From IMG/VR virus record IMGVR_UViG_3300037843_000385: a DNA stretch of 30,659 bases; one strand, 5' to 3'. The translations under genes and the position numbers were made by a program. This DNA comes from a virus. This document shows positions 1,008-19,129 of the stretch, piece by piece. Within the stretch, counting starts at the first letter, position 1. Every line of letters starts with the position of its first letter. Below the pieces are notes generated by a model. That model worked only from the letters and a program-made list of their open reading frames with translations, made no database searches and had not been told where the DNA came from.

Positions 1008-1228
1008 TCTGGCTGGCCTACGTCGGTTTCGTGCTCGTCTTCCTGTCCTACGCGAGGATTCCCAAGAGTCCCCGCTCCGGGTGGGCATACGGGGCGTTGG
1101 GGAACGTCCTTTACACTATTGCATTCCTGCCCTACCGTAGGGTAGAGTTGCTTTTAGCGCCCGTCGCATTCGCGGCGCTGTCCGCGTGGAACCTATGGCG
1201 AGAACTAAGGAAGACATCCTCGAACTGA
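1004..1228 (+). CDS. Small 2-TM membrane protein (74 aa)
   Basis: Two hydrophobic segments with basic loops. The start overlaps the upstream stop (ATGA). It overlaps the next gene by about 35-43 nt, which lowers confidence. Confidence 0.4.
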   Translation: MIWLAYVGFVLVFLSYARIPKSPRSGWAYGALGNVLYTIAFLPYRRVELLLAPVAFAALSAWNLWRELRKTSSN

Positions 1229-2037
1229 TCCGGCACACGCCGTTCATGTGGCCCGACTCCGTCATCCACGTATTTATATCCGGCTCCGCGATGCACGGCG
1301 CGACCGGAAGCCAGCCGACCGACACCGACATCTCCGGGGTGTACATTCAGCCCGTGGAGACGGTGCTGGGCATCCCGCAGAAGAATGAGGATGGCAAATG
1401 GTTCGATCCGGACACCCAGGTGTGGAGCAGCGCTGGCGACCACAGCAAGAACACCGCCGACGACATCGACGTGAACCTGTACTCGCTCCGCAAGTGGGCG
1501 GGCATGGCGGCGAGTGGGAACACCACCGCCTTGGAGTTTCTGTTTGTGAAGAACATGGTCTGTGAGACTCCTTTGGAATATACCGTTTGGGATAAGTACA
1601 TCCTGCCGAACACGCAGCACTTTATCTCCAAGCGTGCGGGCTTCCACTTCGCCGCCTTCGCGGAGGCGATGAAGCTGCGGCTGAGCGGCGGGAGCACGGG
1701 GAGGCACGGGCAAAGACCGGAGCTTGAGACCGAGTTCGGGTACGACGTCAAGGGGGCCATGCACATGCTGCGCATGCTGGGCGAGGGCATCGAGCTTATG
1801 ACCACCGGCGCGATCACCCTGCCTTGCCCGGAAGCGGCGTTCCTGAAGGCCGTTCGGAACGGCGAGCTTTCATGGGCGCAGGTCGATGGGATCGCCGACG
1901 CGAGGTTCAGCATCCTTGGCGAGTGCCGCGAGAAGTCTTTCCTGCCTGACGAGATCGACCGGGCGGCGATCAGCAGGATCATCACCGACGCGCAGATCGA
2001 ATTCTGGGGCTTGGTAGGCAGCAGGAGGGCGATATGA
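1186..2037 (+). CDS. Pol-beta-superfamily nucleotidyltransferase (GS-x9-13-DxD motif)
   Basis: ISGSAMHGATGSQPTDTDISGV is a classic GS...DxD nucleotidyltransferase motif. The ORF is 283 aa with a GTG start at 1186 and an alternative ATG at 1195. Confidence 0.7.
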   Translation: MEPMARTKEDILELIRHTPFMWPDSVIHVFISGSAMHGATGSQPTDTDISGVYIQPVETVLGIPQKNEDGKWFDPDTQVWSSAGDHSKNTADDIDVNLYSLRKWAGMAASGNTTALEFLFVKNMVCETPLEYTVWDKYILPNTQHFISKRAGFHFAAFAEAMKLRLSGGSTGRHGQRPELETEFGYDVKGAMHMLRMLGEGIELMTTGAITLPCPEAAFLKAVRNGELSWAQVDGIADARFSILGECREKSFLPDEIDRAAISRIITDAQIEFWGLVGSRRAI

Positions 2038-6108: not shown

Positions 6109-6184
6109 AGGGGAGTAAGATAACCGGCAGTCGGTCGGTCTCCAAAACCGTACAGTGGCGGTTCAAATCCGTCCTCCCCTGCCA
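6109..6184 (+). tRNA. tRNA-Trp (anticodon CCA), CCA encoded
   Basis: Acceptor AGGGGAG/CTCCCCT, T-arm GGCGG-TTCAAAT-CCGTC, anticodon loop CTCCAAA. 76 nt. Confidence 0.6.
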
Positions 6185-6218
6185 AAGTTTTTGAAAGGAA
6201 AGTAGTTACAAGTTCTAT

Positions 6219-6295
6219 GGTGGCGGTCGTCTAGCGGCTAAGACACCTGACTGTGGATCAGGATAGCATGGGTCCGAATCCCATTCGCCACCCCA
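6219..6295 (+). tRNA. tRNA-His (GTG) with G-1, CCA encoded
   Basis: GGTGGCGG...CGCCACCCCA ends match E. coli tRNA-His. Anticodon loop is CTGTGGA. Confidence 0.75.
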
Positions 6296-6314
6296 ATTTT
6301 GAGGAGAGACGTTG

Positions 6315-6390
6315 GTCCGTGTAGCTCAGAAGGAAGAGCACCACGCTCCGAACGTGGAGGTCGCGAGTCCGAGTCTCGCCATGGACACCA
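6315..6390 (+). tRNA. tRNA-Arg (CCG), CCA encoded
   Basis: Acceptor GTCCGTG/CATGGAC, anticodon stem CCACG/CGTGG with loop CTCCGAA, T-loop TCCGAGT. Confidence 0.7.
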
Positions 6391-6394
6391 GTTT

Positions 6395-6601
6395 ATGATG
6401 ACGTTCACGATCAGCGACGAGAAGGCGGCGCAGTACAAGGCGTGGAGCGAAGAGCACCGGAAGACGTGCGGGGCGCGACCGGATATGAGCATGGCCCTGT
6501 ACAGCTTCGTGTTCACGCCGAACGGTCTTGGGGACGGCATATCGGTCAAATGCCCCTGCGGCGAGAGGGTATTCCTCGACGCCGGGGACGAGGATTTATA
6601 G
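6395..6601 (+). CDS. Small protein (68 aa) embedded between tRNAs, CPCG motif
   Basis: The track ORF 6299..6601 starts inside a tRNA. The first ATG after the tRNA, at 6395, gives MMTFTISDEKAAQYKAW... Confidence 0.5.
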   Translation: MMTFTISDEKAAQYKAWSEEHRKTCGARPDMSMALYSFVFTPNGLGDGISVKCPCGERVFLDAGDEDL

Positions 6602-6679
6602 GCGCGTGTAGCTCAGCCGGAATAGAGCGCTATTCTGCGAAGATAGAGGTCGGCGGTCCGAGTCCGCCCATGCGCACCA
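6602..6679 (+). tRNA. tRNA-Arg (GCG), CCA encoded
   Basis: Acceptor GCGCGTG/CATGCGC, anticodon stem CTATT/GATAG with loop CTGCGAA. 78 nt with a 10-nt D-loop. Confidence 0.6.
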
Positions 6680-6687
6680 AGTTTTTT

Positions 6688-6765
6688 GCCGGGCTAGCCA
6701 TTGGACATGGCGGCACGCCTTCGAAACGTGCACGTTTGCGGGTTCGAATCCCGCGCCCGGTTCCA
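6688..6765 (+). tRNA. tRNA of uncertain identity. The perfect anticodon stem GCACG/CGTGC encloses a 9-nt loop, CCTTCGAAA. An alternative 7-nt loop CTTCGAA gives Arg (TCG).
   Basis: Acceptor GCCGGGC/GCCCGGT, T-arm GCGGG-TTCGAAT-CCCGC, CCA encoded. 78 nt. Confidence 0.5.
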
Positions 6766-6775
6766 GGTTTTTTTT

Positions 6776-6853
6776 GCGCCCGTAGCTCAGCGGAATAAGA
6801 GCATTGGTCTACGAAACCAAGGGTCGCGTGTTCGAATCACGCCGGGCGCACCA
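6776..6853 (+). tRNA. tRNA-Arg (ACG), CCA encoded
   Basis: Acceptor GCGCCCG/CGGGCGC, anticodon stem TTGGT/ACCAA with loop CTACGAA. Confidence 0.75.
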
Positions 6854-6857
6854 ACAT

Positions 6858-6944
6858 TGAGGTGTAGGGGAATCGGTAGACCCACCTGGCTGTTACCCAG
6901 GAGCCGAAAGGCACTTGCAGGTTCGAAGCCTGCCGCCTCAGCCA
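6858..6944 (+). tRNA. Type-II tRNA (long variable arm, discriminator G73) with anticodon GTT (Asn codons). Atypical Ser-like/Asn chimera.
   Basis: Acceptor TGAGGTG/CGCCTCA, 3-bp D-stem, anticodon stem CCTGG/CCAGG with loop CTGTTAC, variable arm AGCCGAAAGGCACTT, T-arm GCAGG-TTCGAAG-CCTGC, then G and CCA. 87 nt. Confidence 0.55.
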
Positions 6945-6962
6945 GTTTAGAGGGAGGATTCA

Positions 6963-7294
<332 letters not shown>

Positions 7295-7299
7295 AGTTT

Positions 7300-7374
7300 G
7301 GGTCTGTAATTCAGCGGCTAGAAGCCCTCGCTCTTAACGAGGTAACGAGAGTTCGAGTCTCTCCAGACCCACCA
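7300..7374 (+). tRNA. tRNA-Lys (CTT), CCA encoded
   Basis: Acceptor GGGTCTG/CAGACCC, anticodon stem CCTCG/CGAGG with loop CTCTTAA. Confidence 0.65.
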
Positions 7375-7394
7375 GGCATCTGATAGAATAGGGC

Positions 7395-7796
7395 ATGAAC
7401 AAGAAAGCTCAAGGCACTCGGTCAGTCGGTGCGGTGATGAGCCACTTCATCAAAGCAGGCAAAATCGTCTTGATGCCGATTGGAGACAATGAGCGATACG
7501 ATTTCGTCATTGATGAGGATGGGCGGTTTCGGCGTATTCAAGTCAAAACGGGCAAGGTCAAGAACGGAGCGATAGAGTTTAGTACCGCCAGCACTAATCT
7601 TGAAAACGGTAAGTGGGTGAGACACGGTTATAGGGGACAGATTGACGATTTCGCAGTTTACTGCCCTAAACTCGACAAGGTTTACCTTGTGCCTATAGAC
7701 GAAGCAGGTGGTCAGACACACTGTTCTTTGCGGCTTGAGCCAGCGAAGAACGGTCAACAAAAGGGCATTAGGCTGGCTGAGCAGTACGAGGTTTAG
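7395..7796 (+). CDS. PD-(D/E)xK-type (Hjc-like) nuclease, candidate free-standing homing endonuclease (133 aa)
   Basis: ...ERYDFVIDEDGRFRRIQVKTGK fits a D...(D/E)xK-like core (D, ED, QVK). The gene is visibly lower in GC than its flanks. It sits between two tRNA-Lys(CTT) genes, and its stop overlaps the downstream tRNA by 1 nt. Confidence 0.6.
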   Translation: MNKKAQGTRSVGAVMSHFIKAGKIVLMPIGDNERYDFVIDEDGRFRRIQVKTGKVKNGAIEFSTASTNLENGKWVRHGYRGQIDDFAVYCPKLDKVYLVPIDEAGGQTHCSLRLEPAKNGQQKGIRLAEQYEV

Positions 7797-7871
7797 GGCT
7801 ACTAACTCAACTGGTAGAGTAGCAGACTCTTAATCTGCGAGTTCGGGGTTCGAGTCCCCGGTGGCCCACCA
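7796..7871 (+). tRNA. tRNA-Lys (CTT), CCA encoded
   Basis: Acceptor GGGCTAC/GTGGCCC, D-stem ACTC/GAGT, anticodon stem GCAGA/TCTGC with loop CTCTTAA. Confidence 0.7.
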
Positions 7872-7910
7872 AGTTTCCGGGTATTAGAACTCTTAGGATA
7901 GGAGGTCAGC

Positions 7911-8456
7911 ATGCCCGACGTACTGGTTCTCGACATGAACTACCGCCCTGTCGGCTTCAAGTCCTGGCAGGACGCGATCACGAACGTGTGGAAGGAGCGG
8001 GCCATCGTCGTCAAGGAGGACGAGTCCGGCCTGAAGCTCCACTCCCCGTCGTTCGAGGTCGGGATGCCGAGGGTGATCCGCGTGCGCAACGCCTGGGTGA
8101 AGCGGCGCAAGACATCCGTGCCGTTCTCGCGGCGCAACCTGTACGTCCGCGACGGCGGCGAGTGCCAGTACTGCGGTAGGCACCTCAAGCTGGAGGAGTA
8201 CACCCTCGATCACGTGATCCCGCGTTCGCAGGGCGGCGTGAGTTCGTGGGTCAACATGGTCCTCGCCTGCATGCGCTGCAACAAGCACAAGGCGGGCCGG
8301 ACGCCGCAGCAGGCAGGGATGCCCCTCCTGCACAAGCCCGTCGTCCCGAAGGTGGACGACCCGAAGTACAACTTCAAGCTCCACATCCGCAAGATGCGGC
8401 CCGAGTGGAAAGAATGGGAGAATTTCCTTTACTGGAATATCGAGCTTGACGAGTAG
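7911..8456 (+). CDS. HNH endonuclease (181 aa)
   Basis: Shine-Dalgarno GGATAGGAGG precedes the ATG. Motifs are CQYCG...LDHVIPRSQGG...CMRCNKHK. Confidence 0.85.
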   Translation: MPDVLVLDMNYRPVGFKSWQDAITNVWKERAIVVKEDESGLKLHSPSFEVGMPRVIRVRNAWVKRRKTSVPFSRRNLYVRDGGECQYCGRHLKLEEYTLDHVIPRSQGGVSSWVNMVLACMRCNKHKAGRTPQQAGMPLLHKPVVPKVDDPKYNFKLHIRKMRPEWKEWENFLYWNIELDE

Positions 8457-8468
8457 ATCAAGCGACAA

Positions 8469-8500
8469 GCCCCGGAGGAGCAACCCTCCTCCGGGCGAAA
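8469..8500 (+). terminator. Stem-loop, possible terminator or processing site
   Basis: CCCGGAGGAG-CAAC-CCTCCTCCGGG hairpin after the HNH gene. Only a weak T-tract follows (AAATTT). Confidence 0.35.
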
Positions 8501-8503
8501 TTT

Positions 8504-8581
8504 GGCCCCGTAGCTCAGCGGAATAAGAGCGACGCACTCCTAACGCGTAGGTCACTGGTCCGAATCCAGTCGGGGTCACCA
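8504..8581 (+). tRNA. tRNA-Arg (CCT), CCA encoded
   Basis: Acceptor GGCCCCG/CGGGGTC, anticodon loop CTCCTAA with an A-C mismatch at 31-39, T-loop TCCGAAT. Confidence 0.55.
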
Positions 8582-8594
8582 ATTTTTGAGTTGT

Positions 8595-8668
8595 TGCCTC
8601 CTCGTCCAACGGTAGGACACGGGTCTCTGGAACCCGGTATCGCGGTTCGAATCCTCGGGAGGCAGCCA
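8595..8668 (+). tRNA. tRNA-Gln (CTG), U1-A72, CCA encoded
   Basis: Acceptor TGCCTCC/GGAGGCA, D-stem GTCC/GGAC, anticodon stem CGGGT/ACCCG with loop CTCTGGA. Confidence 0.65.
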
Positions 8669-8675
8669 AATTTGC

Positions 8676-8704
8676 TGGACAATGCCGCGAAAATGCGGTA
8701 TAAT
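8676..8704 (+). promoter_or_regulatory. Promoter TGGACA-N17-TATAAT driving a leaderless transcript
   Basis: Perfect -10 hexamer with 17-nt spacing. ATG lies 7 nt downstream of the -10. Confidence 0.6.
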
Positions 8705-8711
8705 GATCAGA

Positions 8712-8891
8712 ATGAACTCGACGCTGAAGACGATCCTGAAGGCCGCGGCGATAGCGGTCGTGCCGGGGCTGGGCGCTTTCTGGCTGTTAAGCAGGCTCGC
8801 GAAAGAGCACGAGCGGCAGGAGTTCAGGGAGTACATCCGCAAGACCTACGGGAAGGGAAGCAAGTACGAGAACGAAAATGTTGAGCCTTAG
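8712..8891 (+). CDS. Small membrane protein (59 aa), probably leaderless
   Basis: Track ORF 8682..8891 starts upstream of the -10 element. The in-frame ATG at 8712 lies at the predicted transcription start. Hydrophobic segment AAAIAVVPGLGAFWLL. Confidence 0.5.
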   Translation: MNSTLKTILKAAAIAVVPGLGAFWLLSRLAKEHERQEFREYIRKTYGKGSKYENENVEP

Positions 8892-8892
8892 C

Positions 8893-9003
8893 ATGAACGC
8901 GGACACGCTCTTCAACGTCCTCAGCGGCGTTGTGATGCTTCTCTCCGTCTACGCCTTCTACCAAGCCTCCACCTACGACGCAAAGTTCAGAAGAAAACGC
9001 TGA
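8893..9003 (+). CDS. Possible 36-aa membrane peptide (MNADTLFNVLSGVVMLLSVYAFYQ...)
   Basis: ATG 1 nt after the upstream stop. Not in the ORF track (too short). Hydrophobic core and basic tail. Confidence 0.3.
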   Translation: MNADTLFNVLSGVVMLLSVYAFYQASTYDAKFRRKR

Positions 9004-9015
9004 CCCACATCCTGC

Positions 9016-9098
9016 GGGCGCGTAGTCGGGGGAAGCCTCTACCTTCTTAGCCGTAAACGGAACTGAAAATGAGAGTTCGACTCTCTCCGCGCCTACCA
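9016..9098 (+). tRNA. Aberrant tRNA-like element (83 nt): good acceptor, T-arm and ACCA end, but no canonical D-arm or anticodon-arm fold
   Basis: Acceptor GGGCGCG/CGCGCCT, T-arm GAGAG-TTCGACT-CTCTC, then A and CCA. The only 5-bp anticodon-like stem is GGAAG/CTTCT with loop CCTCTAC. There is an extra CCG-TAAA-CGG hairpin. Confidence 0.35.
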
Positions 9099-9108
9099 AC
9101 CTTTTCGG

Positions 9109-9183
9109 GGGCCGCTAATTCAATTGGCAGAAGCGCCGACTTTTAATCGGTTAATCCCGGTCCGAGTCCGGGGCGGCCTACCA
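9109..9183 (+). tRNA. tRNA-Lys (TTT), CCA encoded
   Basis: Acceptor GGGCCGC/GCGGCCT, anticodon stem GCCGA/TCGGT with loop CTTTTAA, T-arm CCCGG-TCCGAGT-CCGGG. Confidence 0.7.
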
Positions 9184-11110: not shown

Positions 11111-11446
11111 ATGGACGAATCCAATGTCATCAAGGCGGCGGTCTTCAACTCCGACGCGGGGAGGAAGTTCGACTTGTACCTCCGCAGGGACAGGTACAGG
11201 GCGTTCCTGGACTTCCTCAACTGCAACCGGCAGCCTGACGTCAAGCCCGGCATGCCCGGCCTCAGTTGGGCGGCGATCCAGGGTCTCGATGCAATCTTCG
11301 AGAAGCGCCCGAGGCAGTTCCCCGTGCGGGACATCATCGCTTTCTTGGCGAGTGACTGCACCCCCGCCGTCACCTCGCACGAGGTCGAGGCAGCGCTAGA
11401 GTGCTTCGCCGCCGTCTTCCCCCCGGACGTCTCGGAGAGCGCATGA
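11111..11446 (+). CDS. Hypothetical protein (111 aa)
   Basis: ATG after Shine-Dalgarno-like AGGGGCTGAA. In frame with track ORF 10964..11446. Confidence 0.55.
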   Translation: MDESNVIKAAVFNSDAGRKFDLYLRRDRYRAFLDFLNCNRQPDVKPGMPGLSWAAIQGLDAIFEKRPRQFPVRDIIAFLASDCTPAVTSHEVEAALECFAAVFPPDVSESA

Positions 11447-12159
11447 GCTACCAGAGCGGTCGCACATACGAGGTCTTCGTGGACGGCAAGCCCGTGGGGC
11501 TAGTGGGTAGCACTATGCGTCCCCTTAAACAGAGACGTACAGCAGGTTATGTGAAACGATTCGGACAAAGTGTTGAACTCCGCCTCATCCGCGAGGTTCC
11601 GCGCCACGAGAGCGAGGACGACATAAACTACAACTTCCATCTGAAAGCCGCTGAAGCCTTGGACATCGCTCGGAAGAAAACCTACGTAGAGGACGGTGGG
11701 TTGAACAAGCTATCTCCTCTGATTCAGGCAATGGGGCATCCTATGCTTGAGGCGGAGATGGGAAAAATAGGTGGGCGCATAGGGGGACGTATAGGCGGTC
11801 CTATCGCTATTCGCAAAATATCTCGGGATGCCAAAGTTCGTGGTGGGCGCAAGAGTGGACTTATCCAAGGTCGTAGAAATGCCGAAAGCGGACATATGCG
11901 AGCTTTAGGACTTTCAGGAATCGGCGCACGAATTGGGGGGAAAATCAGTGGACCTGTTTTGGGACGCAAGAATGTTGAGAGCGGACACCTTGCTTATATT
12001 TCAAAAAAGGGCGGTCAGGTCGCTGGGCGCAAAGCCGCCAAAAGCGGACAGCTTGCTCGTACTGCAAGCAAAGGCGGATGTATCAGTACGTGTAAACGCT
12101 GGAACATTGATCGTGGAAAACCATGCATTTGTGGAAAACACTTCAAGGCAGAAGCATGA
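11443..12159 (+). CDS. GIY-YIG-like homing endonuclease with NUMOD3-like repeats and a C-terminal zinc finger (238 aa)
   Basis: N-terminus RTYEVFVDGKPVGLVGST resembles the GIY...YIG motif. GRKNxESGHL / GRKxxKSGQL repeats are present. C-terminus CISTCKRW...CICGKH. GC is lower than the flanks. ATGA overlap with the upstream gene. Confidence 0.55.
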   Translation: MSYQSGRTYEVFVDGKPVGLVGSTMRPLKQRRTAGYVKRFGQSVELRLIREVPRHESEDDINYNFHLKAAEALDIARKKTYVEDGGLNKLSPLIQAMGHPMLEAEMGKIGGRIGGRIGGPIAIRKISRDAKVRGGRKSGLIQGRRNAESGHMRALGLSGIGARIGGKISGPVLGRKNVESGHLAYISKKGGQVAGRKAAKSGQLARTASKGGCISTCKRWNIDRGKPCICGKHFKAEA

Positions 12160-12913: not shown

Positions 12914-12919
12914 TATTAT
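12914..12919 (+). promoter_or_regulatory. -10 element TATTAT 6 nt upstream of ATGAGC (leaderless-type promoter)
   Basis: AGTATTATCTGGGTATGAGC. The same motif recurs at 15684. Confidence 0.4.
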
Positions 12920-12925
12920 CTGGGT

Positions 12926-13297
12926 ATGAGCTTCACTGGGTTCCTACAGCAATACATCAGGCCCTCCCGCTGGTGGAGACGCCAGAAGACCGTGCAAGTC
13001 ACCGTCTGGCCCCGCTTCCTCGCGCAGGCGCTATGTCCGCACATCCGCAAGCAGATGATCATGTGGGACGTGGAAGCCAAGACCAAGACCAGCATGTGCC
13101 TCGACTGTCACAAGCATGTCACGGAAGTGAACGACTGCGCCCACGGCGAGGTGCGCCCATCCATGTGGGAGACGGCCGACGGGCAGACGAAGCTCGTCCC
13201 CCGTGCCTACCGCTGCGACAATTGCGGCGTGGGGCTTGAGGCGAAAGACCTGCCTTCCGGTGTGATGATCACGCACCTGAACATCGAGACACGCTGA
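12926..13297 (+). CDS. Hypothetical Cys/His-rich protein (123 aa)
   Basis: Motifs CLDCHKH...CAHGE...CDNCG. Complete ORF. Confidence 0.55.
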   Translation: MSFTGFLQQYIRPSRWWRRQKTVQVTVWPRFLAQALCPHIRKQMIMWDVEAKTKTSMCLDCHKHVTEVNDCAHGEVRPSMWETADGQTKLVPRAYRCDNCGVGLEAKDLPSGVMITHLNIETR

Positions 13298-14541
13298 TGG
13301 ACGAACACGACGCGGAGCAATACTACAGACACATGAGAGACGACCTGAAATACCAGTACGCCAACCTCGTGAGGGGCGTGATCTTCGGACAGGCGATAGG
13401 CGACGCCCTTGGGCACCCCATCGAGTTCGAGAAGACCCACAAGGTCGCCGACCTGGCGGACGACAACACGTTCACCGACGACACACAGATGTTCTGCGCC
13501 ATCGGCGAGGCGATGCTGGACGCACCGCCGCACAGGGACACCGACCTGTTCATGGACGCGCTCACCAAGCGTTTCGTCGAGTGGAGGCAGAATCCGCTGG
13601 GCGGGACGCACCGCGCTCCCGGCGGCACGTGCATGGAAGCCGTGCGCAAGCTAGGCACGGGACGCCACTGGCGTCAGACCGGGGCGACACGGGACGGCAA
13701 GGGCAACGGCTCCGCGATGCGTGCGGGGATCGTCGGCGCTCGCTATTGGAAGGAGCCGACCATGGCCTTCAGGATCGGCTGCTTGACCAGCGTCGTCACC
13801 CACAACAACCTTGAAGCTATACTCGCGGCAGGCATGGTCGCTTTCCTTGTTTCTCGTTCGATCCAAGGGTGCGGCTTGTTCGAGGCGGTCGCCGAGGGGC
13901 TTGCCCTCTGCGCGGACTTCGAGAACCAAGTGCCCGACTACCCGACCAACAACCTCCCGTTGAACAACATGCGCGACGGCCAAAGCCCGTGGAAGGCGAT
14001 AGCGAGCTTTTCGCGGGGCTTCATCCTCGGCGAAACGGACATGGCAACGAAGGAGTTCCTCGCCGGGAACGGCGATGATTTCACCGCCGTCCCGGCCGTC
14101 TCCGAGGCGATATTCTTCAATGCCCGGCACGACAACTACGACCCCATGGTCATCGAGTGCGCCAACGCCAGCGACGACTCCGACACCATCACCGCGATCA
14201 CCGGGACGATAGCAGGGGCGCGGTTCGGCTTCGACATGATTAACGCGAACGTCCAAATAGACCGGAGGGACGGGTGGACGGACAGGATCGAGATGCGCGA
14301 TTATCTCGAAGACCTTTCCAAGCGCATCTTCGAGACGAGCCTCGGTGAGGGGGAGATCGAGGAGGCCCGCGCCGCGCATGACATCGACGCCGCCCTCGGC
14401 GAGGAGTACGCGGAGGACGAGGTGACGTTCGAGGACGTGATCGCGGGCAAAATAGCCGACGACGGCGAAGTGCCGGAGGACGAGGTGACGTTCGGGGACC
14501 TTTCCGGCGGCGAGGACCCGGACTGGGAGGTGGAATTCTGA
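13297..14541 (+). CDS. ADP-ribosylglycohydrolase family protein (ARH/DraG-like) with an acidic repeat tail (414 aa)
   Basis: GQAIGDALGHPIEF, TDDTQM, GNGSAMR and DSDTITAITGTIAGARFG signatures. C-terminal direct repeat EDEVTF(E/G)D. Confidence 0.85.
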   Translation: MDEHDAEQYYRHMRDDLKYQYANLVRGVIFGQAIGDALGHPIEFEKTHKVADLADDNTFTDDTQMFCAIGEAMLDAPPHRDTDLFMDALTKRFVEWRQNPLGGTHRAPGGTCMEAVRKLGTGRHWRQTGATRDGKGNGSAMRAGIVGARYWKEPTMAFRIGCLTSVVTHNNLEAILAAGMVAFLVSRSIQGCGLFEAVAEGLALCADFENQVPDYPTNNLPLNNMRDGQSPWKAIASFSRGFILGETDMATKEFLAGNGDDFTAVPAVSEAIFFNARHDNYDPMVIECANASDDSDTITAITGTIAGARFGFDMINANVQIDRRDGWTDRIEMRDYLEDLSKRIFETSLGEGEIEEARAAHDIDAALGEEYAEDEVTFEDVIAGKIADDGEVPEDEVTFGDLSGGEDPDWEVEF

Positions 14542-15269
14542 TGGAAACGCTCTTGAACGGCATCATAAGCGCTCTGGCAGCTATGGTCGCACCCGGCGTG
14601 ACAACCAAGCAACTCGACGAGCAGGCGGAGCGCCTGTGCGCCGTCCACGGTGTCAAGCCCGCGTTCAAGGGCTACAAGCCGCCCAACTTCGGCAAGGAGG
14701 AGGGCTTCCCGAACGCGCTCTGCGTCTCGATTAACGAGGAGGTCATCCACGGCATTCCGTCCGACAGGCAAATAGTCGAGGGGGACGTTGTAAAATTGGA
14801 CATGGGGATCGAGCAGGACGGGCAGTTTGACGATGGTGCGACAACCGTGCTCGTCGGTGATATAGACCCGAAGACTGGGCATATCCTCGGCACGTCCGCG
14901 ACAGCGCGAAAGCTCGTGAAGGCGACAAAGGAAGCATTGGACGCCGGAATCGCGCAAGCGAAAGCCGGGAAGACCACGCACGACATCGCAGCCGTCGTCG
15001 AGGCGGTTGCGAAAAAATACGATGTGCATGTTATCCACGGCTACGGCGGGCACGGCATTGGGGAACAGCTTCACATGGAGCCGCATATCCCGAACGAGGT
15101 CGCTGGCGAGGCGGCCCCAGTAAAGCTTGAGAAGGGCATGCGTATCGCCATCGAGCCGATGTTCGGCTCGAATCACGGATTCACGCAAGTAGCGAAGGAT
15201 GGATGGACGGTGAAGCTCCGCAATGGGGGCCTCGCCGCGCACTTCGAACAGACAGTCACCATTGAGTGA
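14541..15269 (+). CDS. map: Methionine aminopeptidase, type I
   Basis: FPNALCVSINEEVIHGIP, GDVVKLDMG, HGYGGHGIG, IAIEPM and HFEQTVTI match the MetAP-I metal-binding signatures. Confidence 0.9.
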   Translation: METLLNGIISALAAMVAPGVTTKQLDEQAERLCAVHGVKPAFKGYKPPNFGKEEGFPNALCVSINEEVIHGIPSDRQIVEGDVVKLDMGIEQDGQFDDGATTVLVGDIDPKTGHILGTSATARKLVKATKEALDAGIAQAKAGKTTHDIAAVVEAVAKKYDVHVIHGYGGHGIGEQLHMEPHIPNEVAGEAAPVKLEKGMRIAIEPMFGSNHGFTQVAKDGWTVKLRNGGLAAHFEQTVTIE

Positions 15270-15282
15270 GGCAGGAAGTTTA

Positions 15283-15462
15283 ATGAGCCAACCAACGTTT
15301 GAGCAGGTACCGCTTGATCTTGAAAAGATGAACATCATCTTGCGGGCACTTGAATGGTCCTACGAGGACAAGAACAATCCCAACGGCATCCGCAAGAAAA
15401 TGAAGGTCTTGCATGGCAAGCTGGAACGCCACCTGCATGGAATCTTAGACCGACTGGATTGA
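15283..15462 (+). CDS. Hypothetical protein (59 aa)
   Basis: ATG after GAGGCAGGAAG. In frame with track ORF 15223..15462. Confidence 0.5.
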   Translation: MSQPTFEQVPLDLEKMNIILRALEWSYEDKNNPNGIRKKMKVLHGKLERHLHGILDRLD

Positions 15463-15465
15463 GCC

Positions 15466-15675
15466 ATGAGCAGCAAGAGGCACCTGCGTCGCAGGGCATG
15501 CAGGGGCAAAAACCAGCACATCGACCAAGCCGGGGCGGTCCGTCACCTGATCTCGCTCAAGCACAAAGGCGAGTTTGGTCTCGTGTCGTACAAATGCCCA
15601 TTCGGCAACCACTGGCATGTGGGCCACCCTCCGCGCAGGGTCAGGCAAGCCCTTTCCGCAAAAGGAGTCTGGTAA
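15466..15675 (+). CDS. Basic Cys/His-containing protein (69 aa)
   Basis: Begins 4 nt after the upstream stop. Confidence 0.45.
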   Translation: MSSKRHLRRRACRGKNQHIDQAGAVRHLISLKHKGEFGLVSYKCPFGNHWHVGHPPRRVRQALSAKGVW

Positions 15676-15683
15676 ATTTCCAG

Positions 15684-15689
15684 TATTAT
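15684..15689 (+). promoter_or_regulatory. -10 element TATTAT 6 nt upstream of ATGAGC (leaderless-type promoter)
   Basis: AGTATTATCGGGATATGAGC, near-identical to the motif at 12912-12931. Confidence 0.4.
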
Positions 15690-15695
15690 CGGGAT

Positions 15696-16133
15696 ATGAG
15701 CAAGCCAAAATCCTCTGTACCCGCAACCACCAAAGCATTGCAAGCATGGCATTCCGAGCTTCGACACCTAGAAAAGCGGCTGGGAGAGTGGGCCAACATC
15801 CTCGCCGAGCGCGAGCGGCTCCTGGAGGAGCAGGAAGCCGCCTTTTCCGCCGCTGTCGATGACGCGCCGGACGAAGTAGTCAAGCATTATGCCAACAACC
15901 ACGCGTACGACATTGACGAGGATTGCGGTTGTACCCCCGAAGACGCCGTCACTGGGTGCGACTGCCCGAAGTGCGAACAAGGGAGAGCACACTGGAAGGT
16001 GCATGGTGCGCCTCCGACGATCATCCTGGACCGGCGTCCGTATCCTGGCGATAAGGGCGACGAAGTCGAGTGGCTTGAGGGCCTCTGGAAACTGGAAGAC
16101 AAGAGGCGCGGAAAAAAGGAAGCGCGAAAATGA
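15696..16133 (+). CDS. Hypothetical protein with CGC...CDCPKC motif (145 aa)
   Basis: ATG 6 nt after TATTAT. In frame with track ORF 15354..16133. Confidence 0.55.
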   Translation: MSKPKSSVPATTKALQAWHSELRHLEKRLGEWANILAERERLLEEQEAAFSAAVDDAPDEVVKHYANNHAYDIDEDCGCTPEDAVTGCDCPKCEQGRAHWKVHGAPPTIILDRRPYPGDKGDEVEWLEGLWKLEDKRRGKKEARK

Positions 16134-16838: not shown

Positions 16839-18662
16839 ATGAGCGAAGAGAACAACCTGCTGCGCCGGGTCTTCGGGATGCTCCAAGACAACGTCCGCAC
16901 CTACCAGATCGCCGAGGACCAGGAAGTCCTTCGCGACGAATTCTCCTACTGCCAGGTGATGTACAAAATCCTGTTCGGCGACAAGGGCTTCGCCGAGACC
17001 TTGGGGCCGACCTGGCGGATGATCCACGACCCTCGCTTCGTCGCCATCGAGAACATGATGGTGCAGGAGCGCAAGCCGATCTTCGGCGGCGACGCACGCC
17101 TCGGCAGGCAATACTTCAATGACGACGGCGTGATGAACTCCACGGTGTCGGACCTCGAAAAGTACGCCGAGCTTCTCGGCGAGGGGCGCAACTTCCACAA
17201 CGCGCTAGTCCACCCGGACAAGAACTGCCAGCAGCGCATGTGGCTAGAGCGCATCTACACAGGTTTTACCAATCTCAAGCCCTACGAGGGGTTCGCTTGC
17301 ACTTGCGACGCTTATTTGGACGAGCATAGGCTTGCGGTGGACGACCCGACGATCTTCAAGGACGCCCCAGACGAGGCGGTGTGGAGTCTCATCGGGCAGG
17401 AATGCCCGAACCGCGCCGTCACTCGGGGCGGCGATAAGACCGCATACGGCAAACTGCTGTATAACCTGATTCGCGCTGACTTGATCGGGCTGATCCACGA
17501 TTATGCCGAGACGCCGCTCATCGACAGCTATGTCTACCTGCGCGACCACGGCGTCGTGACGGCGACCGAGACCGTCGCCTTCATTGATCCGCACGGGCAG
17601 GAAGCTCCCCGCGTGCTCCAGGAGATCGACATCCTTGAGCAAGCGCTCACGCACCGCGCCACGTTGCGCGTCACCGCGTACAAGATTCTGAAAAAGATCG
17701 GCTTCGAGCAGAAGCTCGGGCAGCTTACCGGGACGGACTTCTTCGAGCTTACCGACACGGAGCGCGACGAGATGCTGCGCATCGTGTACGAGTCCGACTA
17801 CCCCGAGCCTGACCCTAAGATCGGCGGCGGCACCATCGTCGTCCCGAAGAACTGGCGTCCGTTCAGCGACCGCCTGCGCGAGTGGGAACACGCAATCGAG
17901 CAAAAGCTTCTGGACTACGTGCGGGAGAACTGTATGGGGCTGGATTACCCGCTCCGAGAGAGCGCCCAGCTTGCTGTCGAGCGGCAGGAGGCGTGGCGGA
18001 CCGTCGCTGGGCTGCTGGACGGCAGCATCCAACCGATCAACTCCTACACCGAACCCACGGGCGAAATCCCCGCCGACCAGAGCGAGACTGAGGTCATGAA
18101 GTACGCGGCCATGATGGACGCAATCATGTCCAACGAGTTCAAGCAGGAGCTTTACCTGCTGTTCGTGGAAGCCGAGAAGGAAGGCGCGACCGCCATCATC
18201 GACATCCTCACCCCGGTGTTCCTGACGCCCGGCTACCCGCTTGATGAGCAGGAATTCTACCGGATTCTCGAACGCATCCGCATCGGCAGCAAGTCGCTCC
18301 GTGCCGAGCGCATGGAAGCGATCCGGGGAACCAAGCAGACCACGGAGAACCCCGAGGGCAAGGTCGGTCTCAAGGAGACCGCTGGCGAGTTCCACAGCAA
18401 GGACAACCCGAGCGGCGTCTACAGGGGCACTCGCCACTCCCACAACTACATCAAGATAAGCGGCAAGGTGCAGCCCAGGCTAGTCAACACTGGATCGAAG
18501 AGCGAGCACGTCGCCTACTTTGTGGGCGACGCCCGCCTGCACAAGCCGGGGGACAGCCCGATGGAGTACAACTCCATCGTCCCGTTCGACGGCAAGGACG
18601 TCGAAGTCGAGGGCGAGTTCGCCGACGGCTTTTTCGTCGTGAGGGAAATTCGTGAAGCCTGA
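16839..18662 (+). CDS. Large hypothetical protein (607 aa)
   Basis: Long ORF following a 292-nt non-coding leader. I recognise no domain. Confidence 0.75.
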   Translation: MSEENNLLRRVFGMLQDNVRTYQIAEDQEVLRDEFSYCQVMYKILFGDKGFAETLGPTWRMIHDPRFVAIENMMVQERKPIFGGDARLGRQYFNDDGVMNSTVSDLEKYAELLGEGRNFHNALVHPDKNCQQRMWLERIYTGFTNLKPYEGFACTCDAYLDEHRLAVDDPTIFKDAPDEAVWSLIGQECPNRAVTRGGDKTAYGKLLYNLIRADLIGLIHDYAETPLIDSYVYLRDHGVVTATETVAFIDPHGQEAPRVLQEIDILEQALTHRATLRVTAYKILKKIGFEQKLGQLTGTDFFELTDTERDEMLRIVYESDYPEPDPKIGGGTIVVPKNWRPFSDRLREWEHAIEQKLLDYVRENCMGLDYPLRESAQLAVERQEAWRTVAGLLDGSIQPINSYTEPTGEIPADQSETEVMKYAAMMDAIMSNEFKQELYLLFVEAEKEGATAIIDILTPVFLTPGYPLDEQEFYRILERIRIGSKSLRAERMEAIRGTKQTTENPEGKVGLKETAGEFHSKDNPSGVYRGTRHSHNYIKISGKVQPRLVNTGSKSEHVAYFVGDARLHKPGDSPMEYNSIVPFDGKDVEVEGEFADGFFVVREIREA

Positions 18663-18814: not shown

Positions 18815-18843
18815 TTGACGGCGTCCGGTTTTAGCGGTATCAT
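18815..18843 (+). promoter_or_regulatory. Promoter TTGACG-N17-TATCAT with the ATG 6 nt downstream (leaderless)
   Basis: Good -35/-10 spacing. ATG at 18850. Confidence 0.5.
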
Positions 18844-18849
18844 CCCCAC

Positions 18850-19110: not shown

Positions 19111-19129
19111 ATTCTGGTATGCTAGATTC

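What the first reader, a model, noticed from the sequence alone, without database searches (positions are those of the whole stretch)
13297..15269. ADP-ribosylglycohydrolase immediately followed by a phage-encoded methionine aminopeptidase
The ARH signatures (GAIGDALG, TDDTQM, GNGSAMR, DSDTxxAIxGxIAGA) are unambiguous. Phage ARH/DraG-family enzymes could reverse Arg-ADP-ribosylation. That might tune phage Alt/Mod-type ADP-ribosyltransferases or neutralise host or competitor ADP-ribosylating toxins and defences, by analogy with the Tri1 immunity protein. A 20-nt exact direct repeat (14412-14431 and 14475-14494) encodes a duplicated EDEVTF acidic tail motif. A translationally coupled (TGATG) type-I MetAP directly downstream is rare for phages. 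It fits a genome with many leaderless MS- and MK-initiating genes needing N-terminal processing.
Basis: partly seen in the sequence, partly recalled or inferred. Interest (0 to 1): 0.6.

Follow-up and report, generated by a model that had tools for sequence, protein, structure and literature searches.

The report
Huge-phage ADP-ribosylhydrolase and MetAP operon
A fragment of a very large bacteriophage carries, in one small operon, an intact enzyme that removes ADP-ribose tags and a stripped-down but intact enzyme that trims the first methionine from new proteins; both belong to known enzyme families, and the most unusual feature is a conserved acidic "docking" tail on the first enzyme.

Summary
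ORF 13297-14541 is an ADP-ribosylglycohydrolase-fold protein (PF03747, E=7e-49) with every metal-binding and catalytic motif intact. ORF 14541-15269 is a type I methionine aminopeptidase (above NCBIfam's curated cutoff, all five metal ligands present). The two are joined by TGATG.

The window is a 30.6-kb piece of an uncultured huge phage (RIIA/RIIB, Ku, 13 tRNAs). Relatives lie on 230-460 kb viral contigs. Both proteins form phage-specific clades about 20-38% identical to cellular or solved homologues.

ARH and MetAP share a neighbourhood in 7 of 8 lineages, but their order flips and the whole region is syntenic. They are probably co-expressed rather than obligate partners.

New points:
- The 'EDEVTF' duplication is two extra copies of a conserved C-terminal motif, (D/E)(F/Y)E(V/I)EF-COOH. 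It ends a variable acidic disordered linker in 49 of 66 family members, which suggests a docking peptide.
- The MetAP family has lost both termini of bacterial MetAP.
- The operon starts with a leaderless-type promoter.

No ADP-ribosyltransferase is in the window, and substrate specificity (Arg or other) cannot be assigned. Verdict: a new variant of known kinds, of moderate interest.

The parts
12914..12919 (+). -10-like hexamer TATTAT exactly 6 nt before the ATG of gene 12926, with no Shine-Dalgarno. Probable promoter of a leaderless transcript for the p123-ARH-MetAP unit.
   Evidence: The same GTAGTATTATC + 6 nt + ATG is conserved in relative L008. The strict sigma-70 consensus scan found nothing, so this is inferred.
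12926..13297 (+). 123-aa Cys-rich (zinc-ribbon-like) protein of unknown function, joined to ARH by TGATG.
   Evidence: No significant Pfam, PHROG or NCBIfam hit. Conserved upstream of ARH only in close relatives L008 and L046; the upstream gene in L005 is unrelated.
13297..14541 (+). ADP-ribosylglycohydrolase-fold (ARH/ARG) gene, 414 aa.
   Evidence: PF03747 E=6.8e-49; phrog_6572. AF2 model pLDDT 85.5. Foldseek hits to MJ1187, Tri1, ARH3, DraG and ARH1 with target-normalised TM up to 0.82.
13399..13425 (+). GDALGHPIE motif (residues 35-43), including near-invariant Glu43. This aligns with the catalytic Glu of ARH enzymes.
13474..13485 (+). TDDT motif (T60 D61 D62 T63), the first metal-binding site. 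D61, D62 and T63 are invariant in 33 of 33 aligned relatives.
13798..13803 (+). T168-H169, the 'TH' motif of the ARG superfamily, invariant.
   Evidence: The motif is described in PMC9503650.
14173..14187 (+). DDSDT motif (D294 and D296 invariant, T297), the second metal-binding site.
14308..14538 (+). C-terminal tail (about residues 338-414): 28 Asp/Glu against 4 Lys/Arg. A helix runs to about residue 371, the confidence then falls, and residues 388-414 are disordered (pLDDT below 50).
14411..14436 (+). Direct repeat copy 1 (26 nt), encoding AEDEVTFED. An internal copy of the tail motif.
14474..14499 (+). Direct repeat copy 2 (26 nt, one mismatch), encoding PEDEVTFGD. An internal copy of the tail motif.
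14524..14538 (+). Terminal WEVEF-COOH, an instance of the family motif (D/E)(D/E)(F/Y/W)E(V/I)(E/Q/T)(F/L)-COOH.
   Evidence: Present in 49 of 66 family members behind linkers of 23-83 aa. Kept with different codons, and where the downstream SD lies after the stop codon (L046, L047).
14526..14531 (+). GGAGGT Shine-Dalgarno for MetAP, inside the last ARH codons and 9 nt before the ATG at 14541.
   Evidence: Read from the sequence.
14541..15269 (+). Type I methionine aminopeptidase gene, 242 aa, 'minimal' form.
   Evidence: PF00557 E=2.6e-37. TIGR00500 213.8 bits against a cutoff of 171.35. Best solved relative is T. maritima MetAP 1o0x, E=1.3e-35.
14748..15248 (+). Span holding the MetAP catalytic residues: H70, D87, D98, H171, H178, E205 and E236. 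These correspond to E. coli H79, D97, D108, H171, H178, E204 and E235.
   Evidence: Each is conserved in 119-120 of 120 phage-clade MetAPs.
15283..15675 (+). Two small genes (59 aa and 69 aa) that follow MetAP closely, before the next leaderless-type start at 15696. Probable end of the operon.
   Evidence: The 69-aa product matches phrog_14788, of unknown function.

Best explanation
The window is part of an uncultured huge phage whose relatives have genomes of about 430-460 kb. One short operon appears to be transcribed from a leaderless-type promoter at about 12914 and is translated by stop-start coupling. It makes a small Cys-rich protein, an active metal-dependent ADP-ribosyl hydrolase, and an active type I methionine aminopeptidase.

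ARH. It hydrolyses ADP-ribose from a macromolecular substrate. Its acidic, disordered C-terminal tail ends in a conserved EVEF-COOH peptide, reiterated twice internally in this phage. The tail most likely tethers the enzyme to a basic partner or substrate complex. The most likely role is erasing ADP-ribosylation that would harm the infection, that is, host ADP-ribosyltransferase toxins or defences, acting as an 'orphan antitoxin' in the way shown for phage NADAR AdfN.

MetAP. It is a phage-borne copy of the second step of N-terminal methionine excision. It sits in a genome region that also carries 13 tRNAs and an RNA-repair enzyme. It supplies extra or host-independent processing capacity for phage proteins.

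The two enzymes are co-expressed but probably act independently.

Shown: the folds, intact active sites, coupling, clade conservation and the tail motif. Inferred: enzymatic activity, the substrate, the docking role of the tail, the promoter, and the biological role.
For: Phage origin: RIIA, RIIB and Ku-like proteins; 13 tRNAs; relatives on IMG/VR viral contigs of 231-456 kb.

ARH: PF03747. Invariant D61/D62/T63, T168/H169 and D294/D296, with near-invariant E43. Confident model. The ARH fold matches all solved subfamilies.

Tail: 49 of 66 relatives end in the motif after linkers of 23-83 aa. The tail is disordered in the model. The motif is kept with other codons and where the next gene has its own SD.

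MetAP: above the curated type I cutoff. Metal ligands and catalytic His residues are conserved in 119-120 of 120. At least 120 clusters lie on contigs up to 458 kb.

Co-expression: TGATG at both junctions and a leaderless-type -10 that is conserved in L008.

Independence: MetAP is immediately downstream in 4 lineages, 1.6-2.1 kb upstream in 3, and absent within the 6-10 kb flanks fetched in 1, where the tail persists. Tail-less ARHs coexist with MetAP.

Rationale from the literature: phage ARG domains are predicted to act on macromolecular ADPr (PMC9503650); a phage orphan eraser counters DarT1 (PMC11825919); a host metAP point mutation blocks a late step of phage replication (PMC6761271).
Against: No biochemical data exist. 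No ADP-ribosyltransferase, host or phage, is linked to this ARH: none is in the window and there are no PADLOC matches. Specificity cannot be read from sequence, because the protein is about equally distant (17-20% identity) from Arg-, Ser- and poly-ADPr-specific enzymes. The tail's partner is unknown and the model does not show it docking anywhere. The promoter call rests on a -10-like hexamer only; the consensus scan found none. The window is only about 7% of the likely genome, so partners may lie elsewhere. The loss of both MetAP termini might alter ribosome docking or stability.
Confidence: 0.45

Rival explanations
1. Writer-eraser cycle. The ARH reverses ADP-ribosylation placed by the phage's own transferase (Alt/Mod-like or PARP-like), tuning host takeover rather than countering defence.
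For: The closest long relative (L008, ARH 75% identical) encodes a WGR+PARP-domain protein 3.3 kb upstream of ARH. PARP homologues occur on other huge viral contigs of 133-548 kb. ART-ARG pairs in phages are noted in PMC9503650.
Against: No ART is in the window, and the PARP + permease block is simply absent at the equivalent place. None of the 11 IMG/VR PARP contigs is among the ARH contigs, and no ARH lies within 3 kb of those PARP genes.
Confidence: 0.2
2. The ARH acts on nucleic-acid-linked or small-molecule ADP-ribose, as part of an RNA-repair or NAD-salvage toolkit rather than on proteins. Possible substrates are by-products of Tpt1/KptA, ADP-ribosylated RNA or DNA ends or bases, and O-acetyl-ADP-ribose.
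For: The context is rich in RNA functions: a 13-tRNA array and the RlaP RNA-repair nucleotidyltransferase. Tpt1/KptA lies 1.4 kb upstream of ARH in L007 and a NUDIX gene 1.7 kb downstream in L005. ARH3, a structural neighbour, is known to accept several non-protein ADPr substrates (established knowledge, recalled rather than tested). An acidic tail ending in an aromatic residue is the format of SSB-type tails that dock on replication proteins (recalled). The same tail ending occurs on an unannotated protein in the replication module of an unrelated phage contig.
Against: PMC9503650 argues from phyletic patterns that phage ARG domains prefer macromolecular protein conjugates. Known erasers of base-linked DNA ADPr are macro and NADAR domains, not ARH. 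The neighbouring genes differ between lineages, so the context signal is weak.
Confidence: 0.2
3. ARH and MetAP are a functional pair. For example, the EVEF tail docks on MetAP or the ribosome exit site so that nascent or translation-factor proteins are de-ADP-ribosylated and processed together.
For: The two share a neighbourhood in 7 of 8 lineages and are translationally coupled in 4. Translation-related context.
Against: Gene order flips and 1.6-2.1 kb of other genes intervene in 3 lineages. In the 431-kb lineage ARH keeps its tail, yet no MetAP lies within the 6-10 kb flanks fetched; one search lists the 431,749-bp contig length for a MetAP cluster, which suggests the gene is elsewhere on it. 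Tail-less ARHs coexist with MetAP. The whole ARH-p607-RIIA/B-Ku region is syntenic, so proximity carries little information.
Confidence: 0.1
4. The M24 protein is not a true methionine aminopeptidase, because it lacks both termini of bacterial MetAP. It could have another peptidase specificity or be a non-catalytic binder.
For: About 16 N-terminal and about 23 C-terminal residues of E. coli MetAP are missing, and there are two insertions of 8 and 10 aa. Pocket residue C59 is replaced by an invariant Phe.
Against: It scores above the curated equivalog cutoff for type I MetAP and far below those of the other M24 families. All metal ligands, both catalytic His residues and pocket residues Y62 and W221 are conserved across 120 relatives. 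It aligns with solved MetAPs from just after their N-terminal segment to their last conserved strand (query 7-14 to 240-241).
Confidence: 0.07

Closest known systems
Tri1 (ADP-ribosylarginine hydrolase immunity protein of Serratia; PDB 6DRE/6DRH; NCBIfam NF041672)
   Same: Same fold and the same metal-binding motifs. It is the best sequence hit among solved structures (E=1.7e-10) and the best NCBIfam model. It is a precedent for an ARH that neutralises a hostile ADP-ribosyltransferase.
   Different: Only about 19% identical. It scores 60.9 bits against a cutoff of 490. No cognate toxin gene is present. The phage protein has a C-terminal acidic tail with an EVEF motif, which the aligned Tri1 chain does not match (alignment ends at query residue 345).
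DraG (dinitrogenase reductase-activating glycohydrolase; TIGR02662; PDB 2WOC)
   Same: ARH fold, DxDT and TDD motifs, and an Arg-ADPr eraser paired with a writer (DraT).
   Different: 46.8 bits against a cutoff of 337. No DraT, no nitrogenase context, and a phage setting.
ARH3 / ADPRHL2 (Ser-ADPr, poly-ADPr and O-acetyl-ADPr hydrolase)
   Same: Structural neighbour (target-normalised TM 0.71-0.79). The equivalents of E41, D77/D78 and D314/D316/T317 are present (residue numbers recalled; mutant names agree).
   Different: 17-19% identity, so substrate preference cannot be transferred. A PARP-type writer is seen only in one relative (L008).
Phage ARG-domain proteins surveyed by Iyer et al. 2022 (PMC9503650); PHROG 6572
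   Same: Same superfamily in phages, reported in about 5% of jumbo phages and in actinophages, with a predicted action on macromolecular ADPr. The protein matches phrog_6572 at E=1e-29.
   Different: That survey does not mention aminopeptidases (0 occurrences). The nearest deposited phage ARHs are 27-33% identical over partial lengths.
AdfN, the phage NADAR 'orphan antitoxin' against DarT1 (PMC11825919)
   Same: The concept: a phage-borne enzymatic eraser of ADP-ribose without a cognate toxin, used as counter-defence.
   Different: Unrelated fold (NADAR against ARH), with a proven DNA-guanine substrate. Nothing is proven here.
Bacterial type Ia methionine aminopeptidase (E. coli Map; T. maritima 1O0X; TIGR00500)
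   Same: Passes the equivalog cutoff. Identical metal ligands and catalytic histidines. 35-39% identity to the bacterial-type MetAPs found in deposited records.
   Different: 242 aa. It lacks about 16 N-terminal and about 23 C-terminal residues, has two insertions and C59 replaced by Phe, and forms a separate clade restricted to huge-phage contigs.
Cyanophage and huge-phage peptide deformylase (PMC3660681; PMC7162821)
   Same: A phage-encoded enzyme of the same N-terminal processing pathway, interpreted as sustaining translation output during infection.
   Different: A different enzyme and a different step. MetAP is not mentioned in the huge-phage or jumbo-phage surveys searched.
Acidic C-terminal tails ending in Phe of SSB-type proteins (E. 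coli SSB ...DDDIPF; T7 gp2.5, gp4)
   Same: The format: a disordered linker, an acidic run, and a hydrophobic or aromatic residue at the very C-terminus, used to dock on partner proteins (recalled knowledge; a lead, not a test).
   Different: The sequence differs (EVEF against IPF). The carrier is an enzyme rather than a DNA-binding protein, and no partner has been identified.

Membership tests
ADP-ribosylglycohydrolase superfamily (PF03747, ARH/ARG) | Sequence match to the family profile above the curated threshold | tested here: met
   167.5 bits against a cutoff of 26.2, E=6.8e-49, covering profile positions 1-285 of 287.
ADP-ribosylglycohydrolase superfamily (PF03747, ARH/ARG) | All-helical ARH fold | tested here: met
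   AF2 model pLDDT 85.5. Foldseek probability 1.00 to MJ1187, Tri1, ARH3, DraG and ARH1, with target-normalised TM 0.64-0.82.
ADP-ribosylglycohydrolase superfamily (PF03747, ARH/ARG) | Binuclear metal site (TDD(T) and DxD(T/S) motifs), catalytic Glu and TH motif | tested here: met
   D61, D62, T63, T168, H169, D294 and D296 are invariant, and E43 is at least 90% conserved, in 33 relatives. The motifs align with those of Tri1.
ADP-ribosylglycohydrolase superfamily (PF03747, ARH/ARG) | Hydrolysis of an ADP-ribosyl linkage | not testable with these tools
   Needs an enzyme assay.
Tri1 (ADP-ribosylarginine hydrolase immunity protein, NF041672) | Equivalog-level score; cognate Tre1-type toxin | tested here: not met
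   60.9 bits against a cutoff of 490. No ART gene in the window.
DraG (TIGR02662) | Equivalog-level score; DraT or nitrogenase context | tested here: not met
   46.8 bits against a cutoff of 337.05. Phage context.
Type I methionine aminopeptidase (TIGR00500; M24A) | Equivalog-level score | tested here: met
   213.8 bits against a cutoff of 171.35. The type II model scores 73.1 against 222.65, and the prolidase and other M24 models are far below their cutoffs.
Type I methionine aminopeptidase (TIGR00500; M24A) | Five metal ligands (E. coli D97, D108, H171, E204, E235) and catalytic H79 and H178 | tested here: met
   D87, D98, H171, E205, E236, H70 and H178 are each conserved in 119-120 of 120 clade members. 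The E. coli sequence was recalled from memory; its residue numbering checked out.
Type I methionine aminopeptidase (TIGR00500; M24A) | Complete pita-bread domain including the N- and C-terminal segments of bacterial enzymes | tested here: not met
   About 16 N-terminal and about 23 C-terminal residues of E. coli MetAP are absent in the whole clade (median length 242 aa). The ORF cannot start earlier. No structure was predicted for it.
Type I methionine aminopeptidase (TIGR00500; M24A) | Removal of initiator Met before small residues; complementation of map | not testable with these tools
   Needs an assay or complementation.
Toxin-antitoxin-like ART-ARH pair | An adjacent ADP-ribosyltransferase gene | tested here: not met
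   No ART domain in any ORF scanned in the window. The p607 neighbour has no fold match.

The most novel reading that the evidence does not exclude
The acidic tail ending in (F/Y)EVEF-COOH is a docking peptide of the kind used by SSB or clamp clients. It recruits the hydrolase to a specific hub, either the phage replisome or ssDNA, or the translation apparatus, so that the enzyme patrols it and strips off ADP-ribose placed by host defence transferases. That would be a targeted ARH-fold 'orphan antitoxin', a class not yet described. The minimal MetAP beside it would make this huge-phage clade independent of host N-terminal processing, a host factor already shown to limit phage growth.
Probability: 0.15. 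Interest if true: 0.7.

Novelty: new variant of a known kind. Interest (0 to 1): 0.42.

Why it matters
ADP-ribosylation is now a recognised battleground between bacteria and phages (DarTG, CmdTAC, T4 Alt/Mod). The proven phage erasers are NADAR and macro domains. An ARH-fold eraser conserved in a clade of 430-460 kb phages, carrying what looks like a dedicated docking peptide, would add a third eraser class. It also offers a handle, the EVEF peptide, for fishing out its target.

A phage-borne MetAP extends the list of translation functions carried by huge phages by one step beyond peptide deformylase. It fits experimental evidence that host MetAP can be limiting for phage maturation. The doubly truncated but conserved enzyme is also a natural 'minimal MetAP' for enzymology.

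If neither idea holds, these are two ordinary auxiliary genes of a huge phage.

Tried and rejected
1. Near-identical DNA in GenBank phages: none. The exact proteins occur only on metagenome contigs.

2. Search for an ADP-ribosyltransferase in the window, using Pfam, PHROGs, NCBIfam or PADLOC on essentially all ORFs of 50 aa or more: none found.

3. p607 (16839..18662), which directly follows tail-less ARHs in L010 and L013, was considered as a hidden ART or partner. It has 90 homologues and none carries a Pfam domain. The AF2 model has pLDDT 73.8. No fold match was found in PDB or BFVD. It remains unexplained.

4. An apparent ARH-p607 in-frame fusion in L013 was an artefact of extending a tblastn hit. 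They are separate ORFs.

5. Is the EVEF conservation merely the Shine-Dalgarno (GAGGTG) of the coupled downstream gene? Rejected. L046 uses GAA ATC GAA TTT with the SD after the stop codon, L047 uses GAA GTA GAG, and 12 of 49 motif-bearing proteins have Ile at that position.

6. Other proteins with the same tail. None in the window or in L001-L008 apart from ARH. A collection scan found ARHs, one unannotated phage replication-module protein, one 94-aa protein, and giant-virus RPB1 homologues, the last probably coincidental.

7. PARP as the cognate writer. It is linked only in L008. PARP loci elsewhere show no ARH or MetAP nearby.

8. LR756511.1, a 595-kb phage with ARH, MetAP and RIIA hits: its ARH belongs to another subfamily without the tail, and its MetAP lies 50 kb away.

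10. The p123 homologue is not conserved upstream of ARH in L005.
Full report
**What is there.**
The two ORFs exist exactly as described: 13297..14541 (+, 414 aa) and 14541..15269 (+, 242 aa).
- The stop of the first and the start of the second share one base (TGATG at 14539-14543).
- The same arrangement joins the preceding 123-aa ORF (12926..13297) to the first gene.
- Pfam assigns the first protein to ADP_ribosyl_GH (PF03747, E=6.8e-49, profile 1-285 of 287) and the second to Peptidase_M24 (PF00557, E=2.6e-37).
- The direct repeat is real: 21 nt exact, 26 nt with one mismatch, 63 nt apart and in frame.

**Where the window comes from.**
The window is phage DNA.
- It encodes RIIA (E=1e-100 to phrog_612), RIIB, a Ku-like protein, a DnaJ-domain protein and an RlaP RNA-repair nucleotidyltransferase.
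- It carries 13 tRNA genes interrupted by two homing-type endonuclease genes.
- No deposited phage is similar at the DNA level.
- The exact ARH protein occurs on seven metagenome contigs, always followed by the same M24 gene.
- Relatives at 44-75% identity lie on contigs of 85-456 kb, several of them classified as viral in IMG/VR.
- The window is therefore roughly 7% of a genome of an uncultured huge-phage clade.

**The hydrolase.**
An alignment of 33 relatives shows the following:
- D61, D62 and T63 (TDDT), T168 and H169 (the 'TH' motif named in PMC9503650), and D294 and D296 (DxDT) are invariant.
- E43, in GHPIE, is near-invariant.

These align with the corresponding motifs of Tri1. The AlphaFold model is confident over the domain (mean pLDDT 85.5). 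It matches every solved ARH subfamily with probability 1.00: MJ1187, Tri1, a Listeria ART-ARH immunity protein, ARH3, DraG and ARH1. Identity to each is only 15-20%.

The curated equivalog models for Tri1 and DraG are missed by a wide margin: 60.9 bits against 490 and 46.8 against 337. The protein is thus a catalytically intact member of the superfamily, but of neither named family. Its bond specificity (Arg, Ser, nucleic acid or small molecule) cannot be read from sequence or fold.

**The tail.**
This is the most informative new observation. After the domain comes a stretch of about 77 residues with 28 Asp/Glu and 4 Lys/Arg.
- It is helical to about residue 371. Confidence then falls, and residues 388-414 are modelled below pLDDT 50.
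- Across the family this linker varies from 23 to 83 residues and is not alignable.
- Yet 49 of 66 members end in (D/E)(D/E)(F/Y/W)-E-(V/I)-(E/Q/T)-(F/L)-COOH.

I checked whether the conservation merely reflects the Shine-Dalgarno sequence (GAGGTG) that the Glu-Val codons provide for the coupled downstream gene. It does not. L046 encodes DEIEF with GAA ATC GAA TTT and places the SD after the stop codon. L047 uses GAA GTA GAG. A quarter of the motif-bearing proteins have Ile.

A variable disordered acidic linker ending in a fixed C-terminal peptide is the signature of a docking motif. It recalls the tails of SSB-type proteins, but that is my recollection and was not tested.
- No other ORF in the window or in loci L001-L008 ends this way.
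- A collection-wide pattern scan recovered ARHs, an unannotated 249-aa protein in the replication module of an unrelated 51-kb phage contig, one small protein, and giant-virus RNA polymerase subunits, the last probably coincidental.
- The partner is unknown.

**The aminopeptidase.**
The protein scores 213.8 bits on TIGR00500 (type I MetAP, cutoff 171.35). It scores far below the cutoffs of type II MetAP, prolidase and the other M24 models. Its best solved relatives are bacterial MetAPs (T. maritima 1o0x, E=1.3e-35).

It was aligned with E. coli MetAP, whose sequence I recalled from memory and whose canonical residue numbers checked out.
- All five metal ligands and both catalytic histidines are present, and each is conserved in 119-120 of 120 clade members.
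- The clade is uniformly short (median 242 aa).
- It lacks about 16 N-terminal and about 23 C-terminal residues of the E. coli enzyme.
- It has two insertions and replaces pocket residue C59 with an invariant Phe.
- An upstream start is impossible.

At least 120 clusters with 51-100% identity exist, on contigs up to 458 kb. Among 50,697 deposited phage records only 21 have any MetAP-like sequence. Most of these are short or unannotated records, or long records annotated with map genes that look bacterial. The exceptions are a 595-kb uncultured phage and Vibrio phage V6Aob. PHROGs has no MetAP family. The huge-phage and jumbo-phage surveys I searched list peptide deformylase but never an aminopeptidase. 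So the gene is rare in isolates but a conserved gene of this clade.

**Are the two genes a pair?**
Among eight distinct lineages with enough flanking DNA:
- MetAP lies immediately downstream of ARH in four: the window, L008, L046 and L007.
- It lies 1.6-2.1 kb upstream in three: L010/L011, L013 and L049.
- It is absent within the 6-10 kb flanks fetched in one: L005/L009.

For that last lineage, one search lists the same 431,749-bp contig length for MetAP cluster P0238, which suggests the gene sits elsewhere on that contig. That lineage keeps the EVEF tail, while the L010 and L013 ARHs lack the tail yet keep MetAP nearby. The whole block ARH...p607...RIIA-RIIB...Ku is syntenic, so proximity is weak evidence of joint function. 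I conclude the genes are co-expressed and probably independent.

**Operon structure.**
Gene 12926 has no Shine-Dalgarno. It is preceded by TATTAT ending exactly 6 nt before its ATG.
- Three other genes (15696, 18850, 19130) show the same geometry.
- All four matches to this six-spacer pattern in the window, on either strand, lie at called gene starts. A fifth, looser match at 8697 also abuts a called start.
- The element is conserved in L008.
- The strict consensus scan found no promoter, so this is an inference.

The link to MetAP is weak, however. 17 of 38 predicted products have a MetAP-compatible second residue, which is unremarkable, and MK- proteins are not substrates (substrate rule from established knowledge).

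**Writers and context.**
No ADP-ribosyltransferase domain was found in any ORF scanned, and nothing matched PADLOC. Relatives carry NAD/ADPr-related genes near ARH:
- a WGR+PARP protein in L008, 3.3 kb upstream;
- Tpt1/KptA in L007;
- a NUDIX protein in L005.

These differ from lineage to lineage. PARP-bearing IMG/VR contigs do not overlap the ARH-bearing ones found. The conserved neighbour p607 has no family or fold match.

**Most likely mechanism.**
The ARH is an active eraser of ADP-ribose on a macromolecular target. Its tail delivers it to a basic partner or complex. Its most plausible use is to undo ADP-ribosylation harmful to infection, as an orphan-antitoxin-like counter-defence. The precedent is phage NADAR AdfN (PMC11825919), and the prediction for phage ARG domains points the same way (PMC9503650).

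The MetAP adds host-independent N-terminal methionine excision to a genome already investing in translation (tRNAs, RNA repair). That fits the finding that a single host metAP mutation blocks a late step of phage replication (PMC6761271).

Rivals are a writer-eraser cycle with a phage PARP or ART, a nucleic-acid or small-molecule substrate, an obligate ARH-MetAP pair, and a non-MetAP M24. They are weighed in the Rival explanations section of this report.

**Novelty.**
Both enzymes belong to known superfamilies, and phage ARG domains have already been surveyed. What I did not find described in the papers searched:
- the conserved C-terminal EVEF docking-type tail;
- the doubly truncated MetAP clade of huge phages;
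- their shared early-type operon.

Interest is moderate. It would rise considerably if the tail's partner or the hydrolase's substrate tied it to a defence system.

Noticed in passing
window 6109-9183: An array of 13 tRNA genes (5 Arg with five different anticodons, 3 Lys, 2 Asn, Trp, His, Gln). It is interrupted by a PD-(D/E)XK endonuclease gene (7395..7796) and an HNH endonuclease gene (7911..8456). ORF 6973..7383 overlaps two of the tRNAs and is probably not a gene.
   Followed up: partly
window 12914-12925, 15684-15695, 18838-18849, 19118-19129: Four genes have a -10-like hexamer (TATTAT, TATTAT, TATCAT, TATGCT) ending exactly 6 nt before the ATG, with no Shine-Dalgarno. This suggests leaderless mRNAs. 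Two of them (18850, 19130) also have TTGACG or TTGTCC at -35 spacing. The element is conserved upstream of the p123 homologue in L008.
   Followed up: partly
window 16839-18662: A 607-aa protein conserved across the huge-phage clade (90 homologues, none with a Pfam domain). It directly follows tail-less ARHs in L010 and L013. The AF2 model is mostly helical (pLDDT 73.8) and has no PDB or BFVD fold match. There are only faint local hits of its C-terminal beta region to baculovirus LEF-3.
   Followed up: yes
window 1186-2037 and 8-772: An RlaP-family RNA-repair nucleotidyltransferase (PF10127, E=8e-19), and a protein with a major-vault-protein 'shoulder' domain cut by the window edge (PF11978).
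   Followed up: no
L008 55-2737; L046 4647-5825: Close relatives insert an amino-acid permease gene, and in L008 a WGR+PARP-catalytic-domain gene (its sequence shows candidate H, Y and E triad residues), a few kb upstream of ARH. The window lacks this block. PARP homologues occur on other viral contigs of 133-548 kb.
   Followed up: partly
L007 4089-4634; L005 8961-9380: A Tpt1/KptA RNA 2'-phosphotransferase (an ART-fold enzyme) lies 1.4 kb upstream of ARH in a 454-kb relative. A NUDIX gene lies 1.7 kb downstream of ARH in a 431-kb relative.
   Followed up: no
L021 5239-5988 (IMG/VR contig of 51.7 kb): An unannotated 249-aa protein ends in a long acidic run and DDYEVEF-COOH. It sits between a PolB-like exonuclease and a dCTP deaminase, in a module with an O-like initiator and a DnaC-like loader. 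It may be another user of the same C-terminal motif.
   Followed up: partly
L019, L020, L024-L026, L030, L031, L033: Giant-virus (GVMAG and related) RNA polymerase largest-subunit homologues end in DDDYE(I/M)EF-COOH. This resembles the ARH tail ending and is probably unrelated.
   Followed up: no
window 11443-12159: A 238-aa protein with repeated Gly-rich basic units (GGRIGG..., GRKxxESGH...) and a Cys-rich C-terminus. It has no family match and was present in all exact-match contigs.
   Followed up: no
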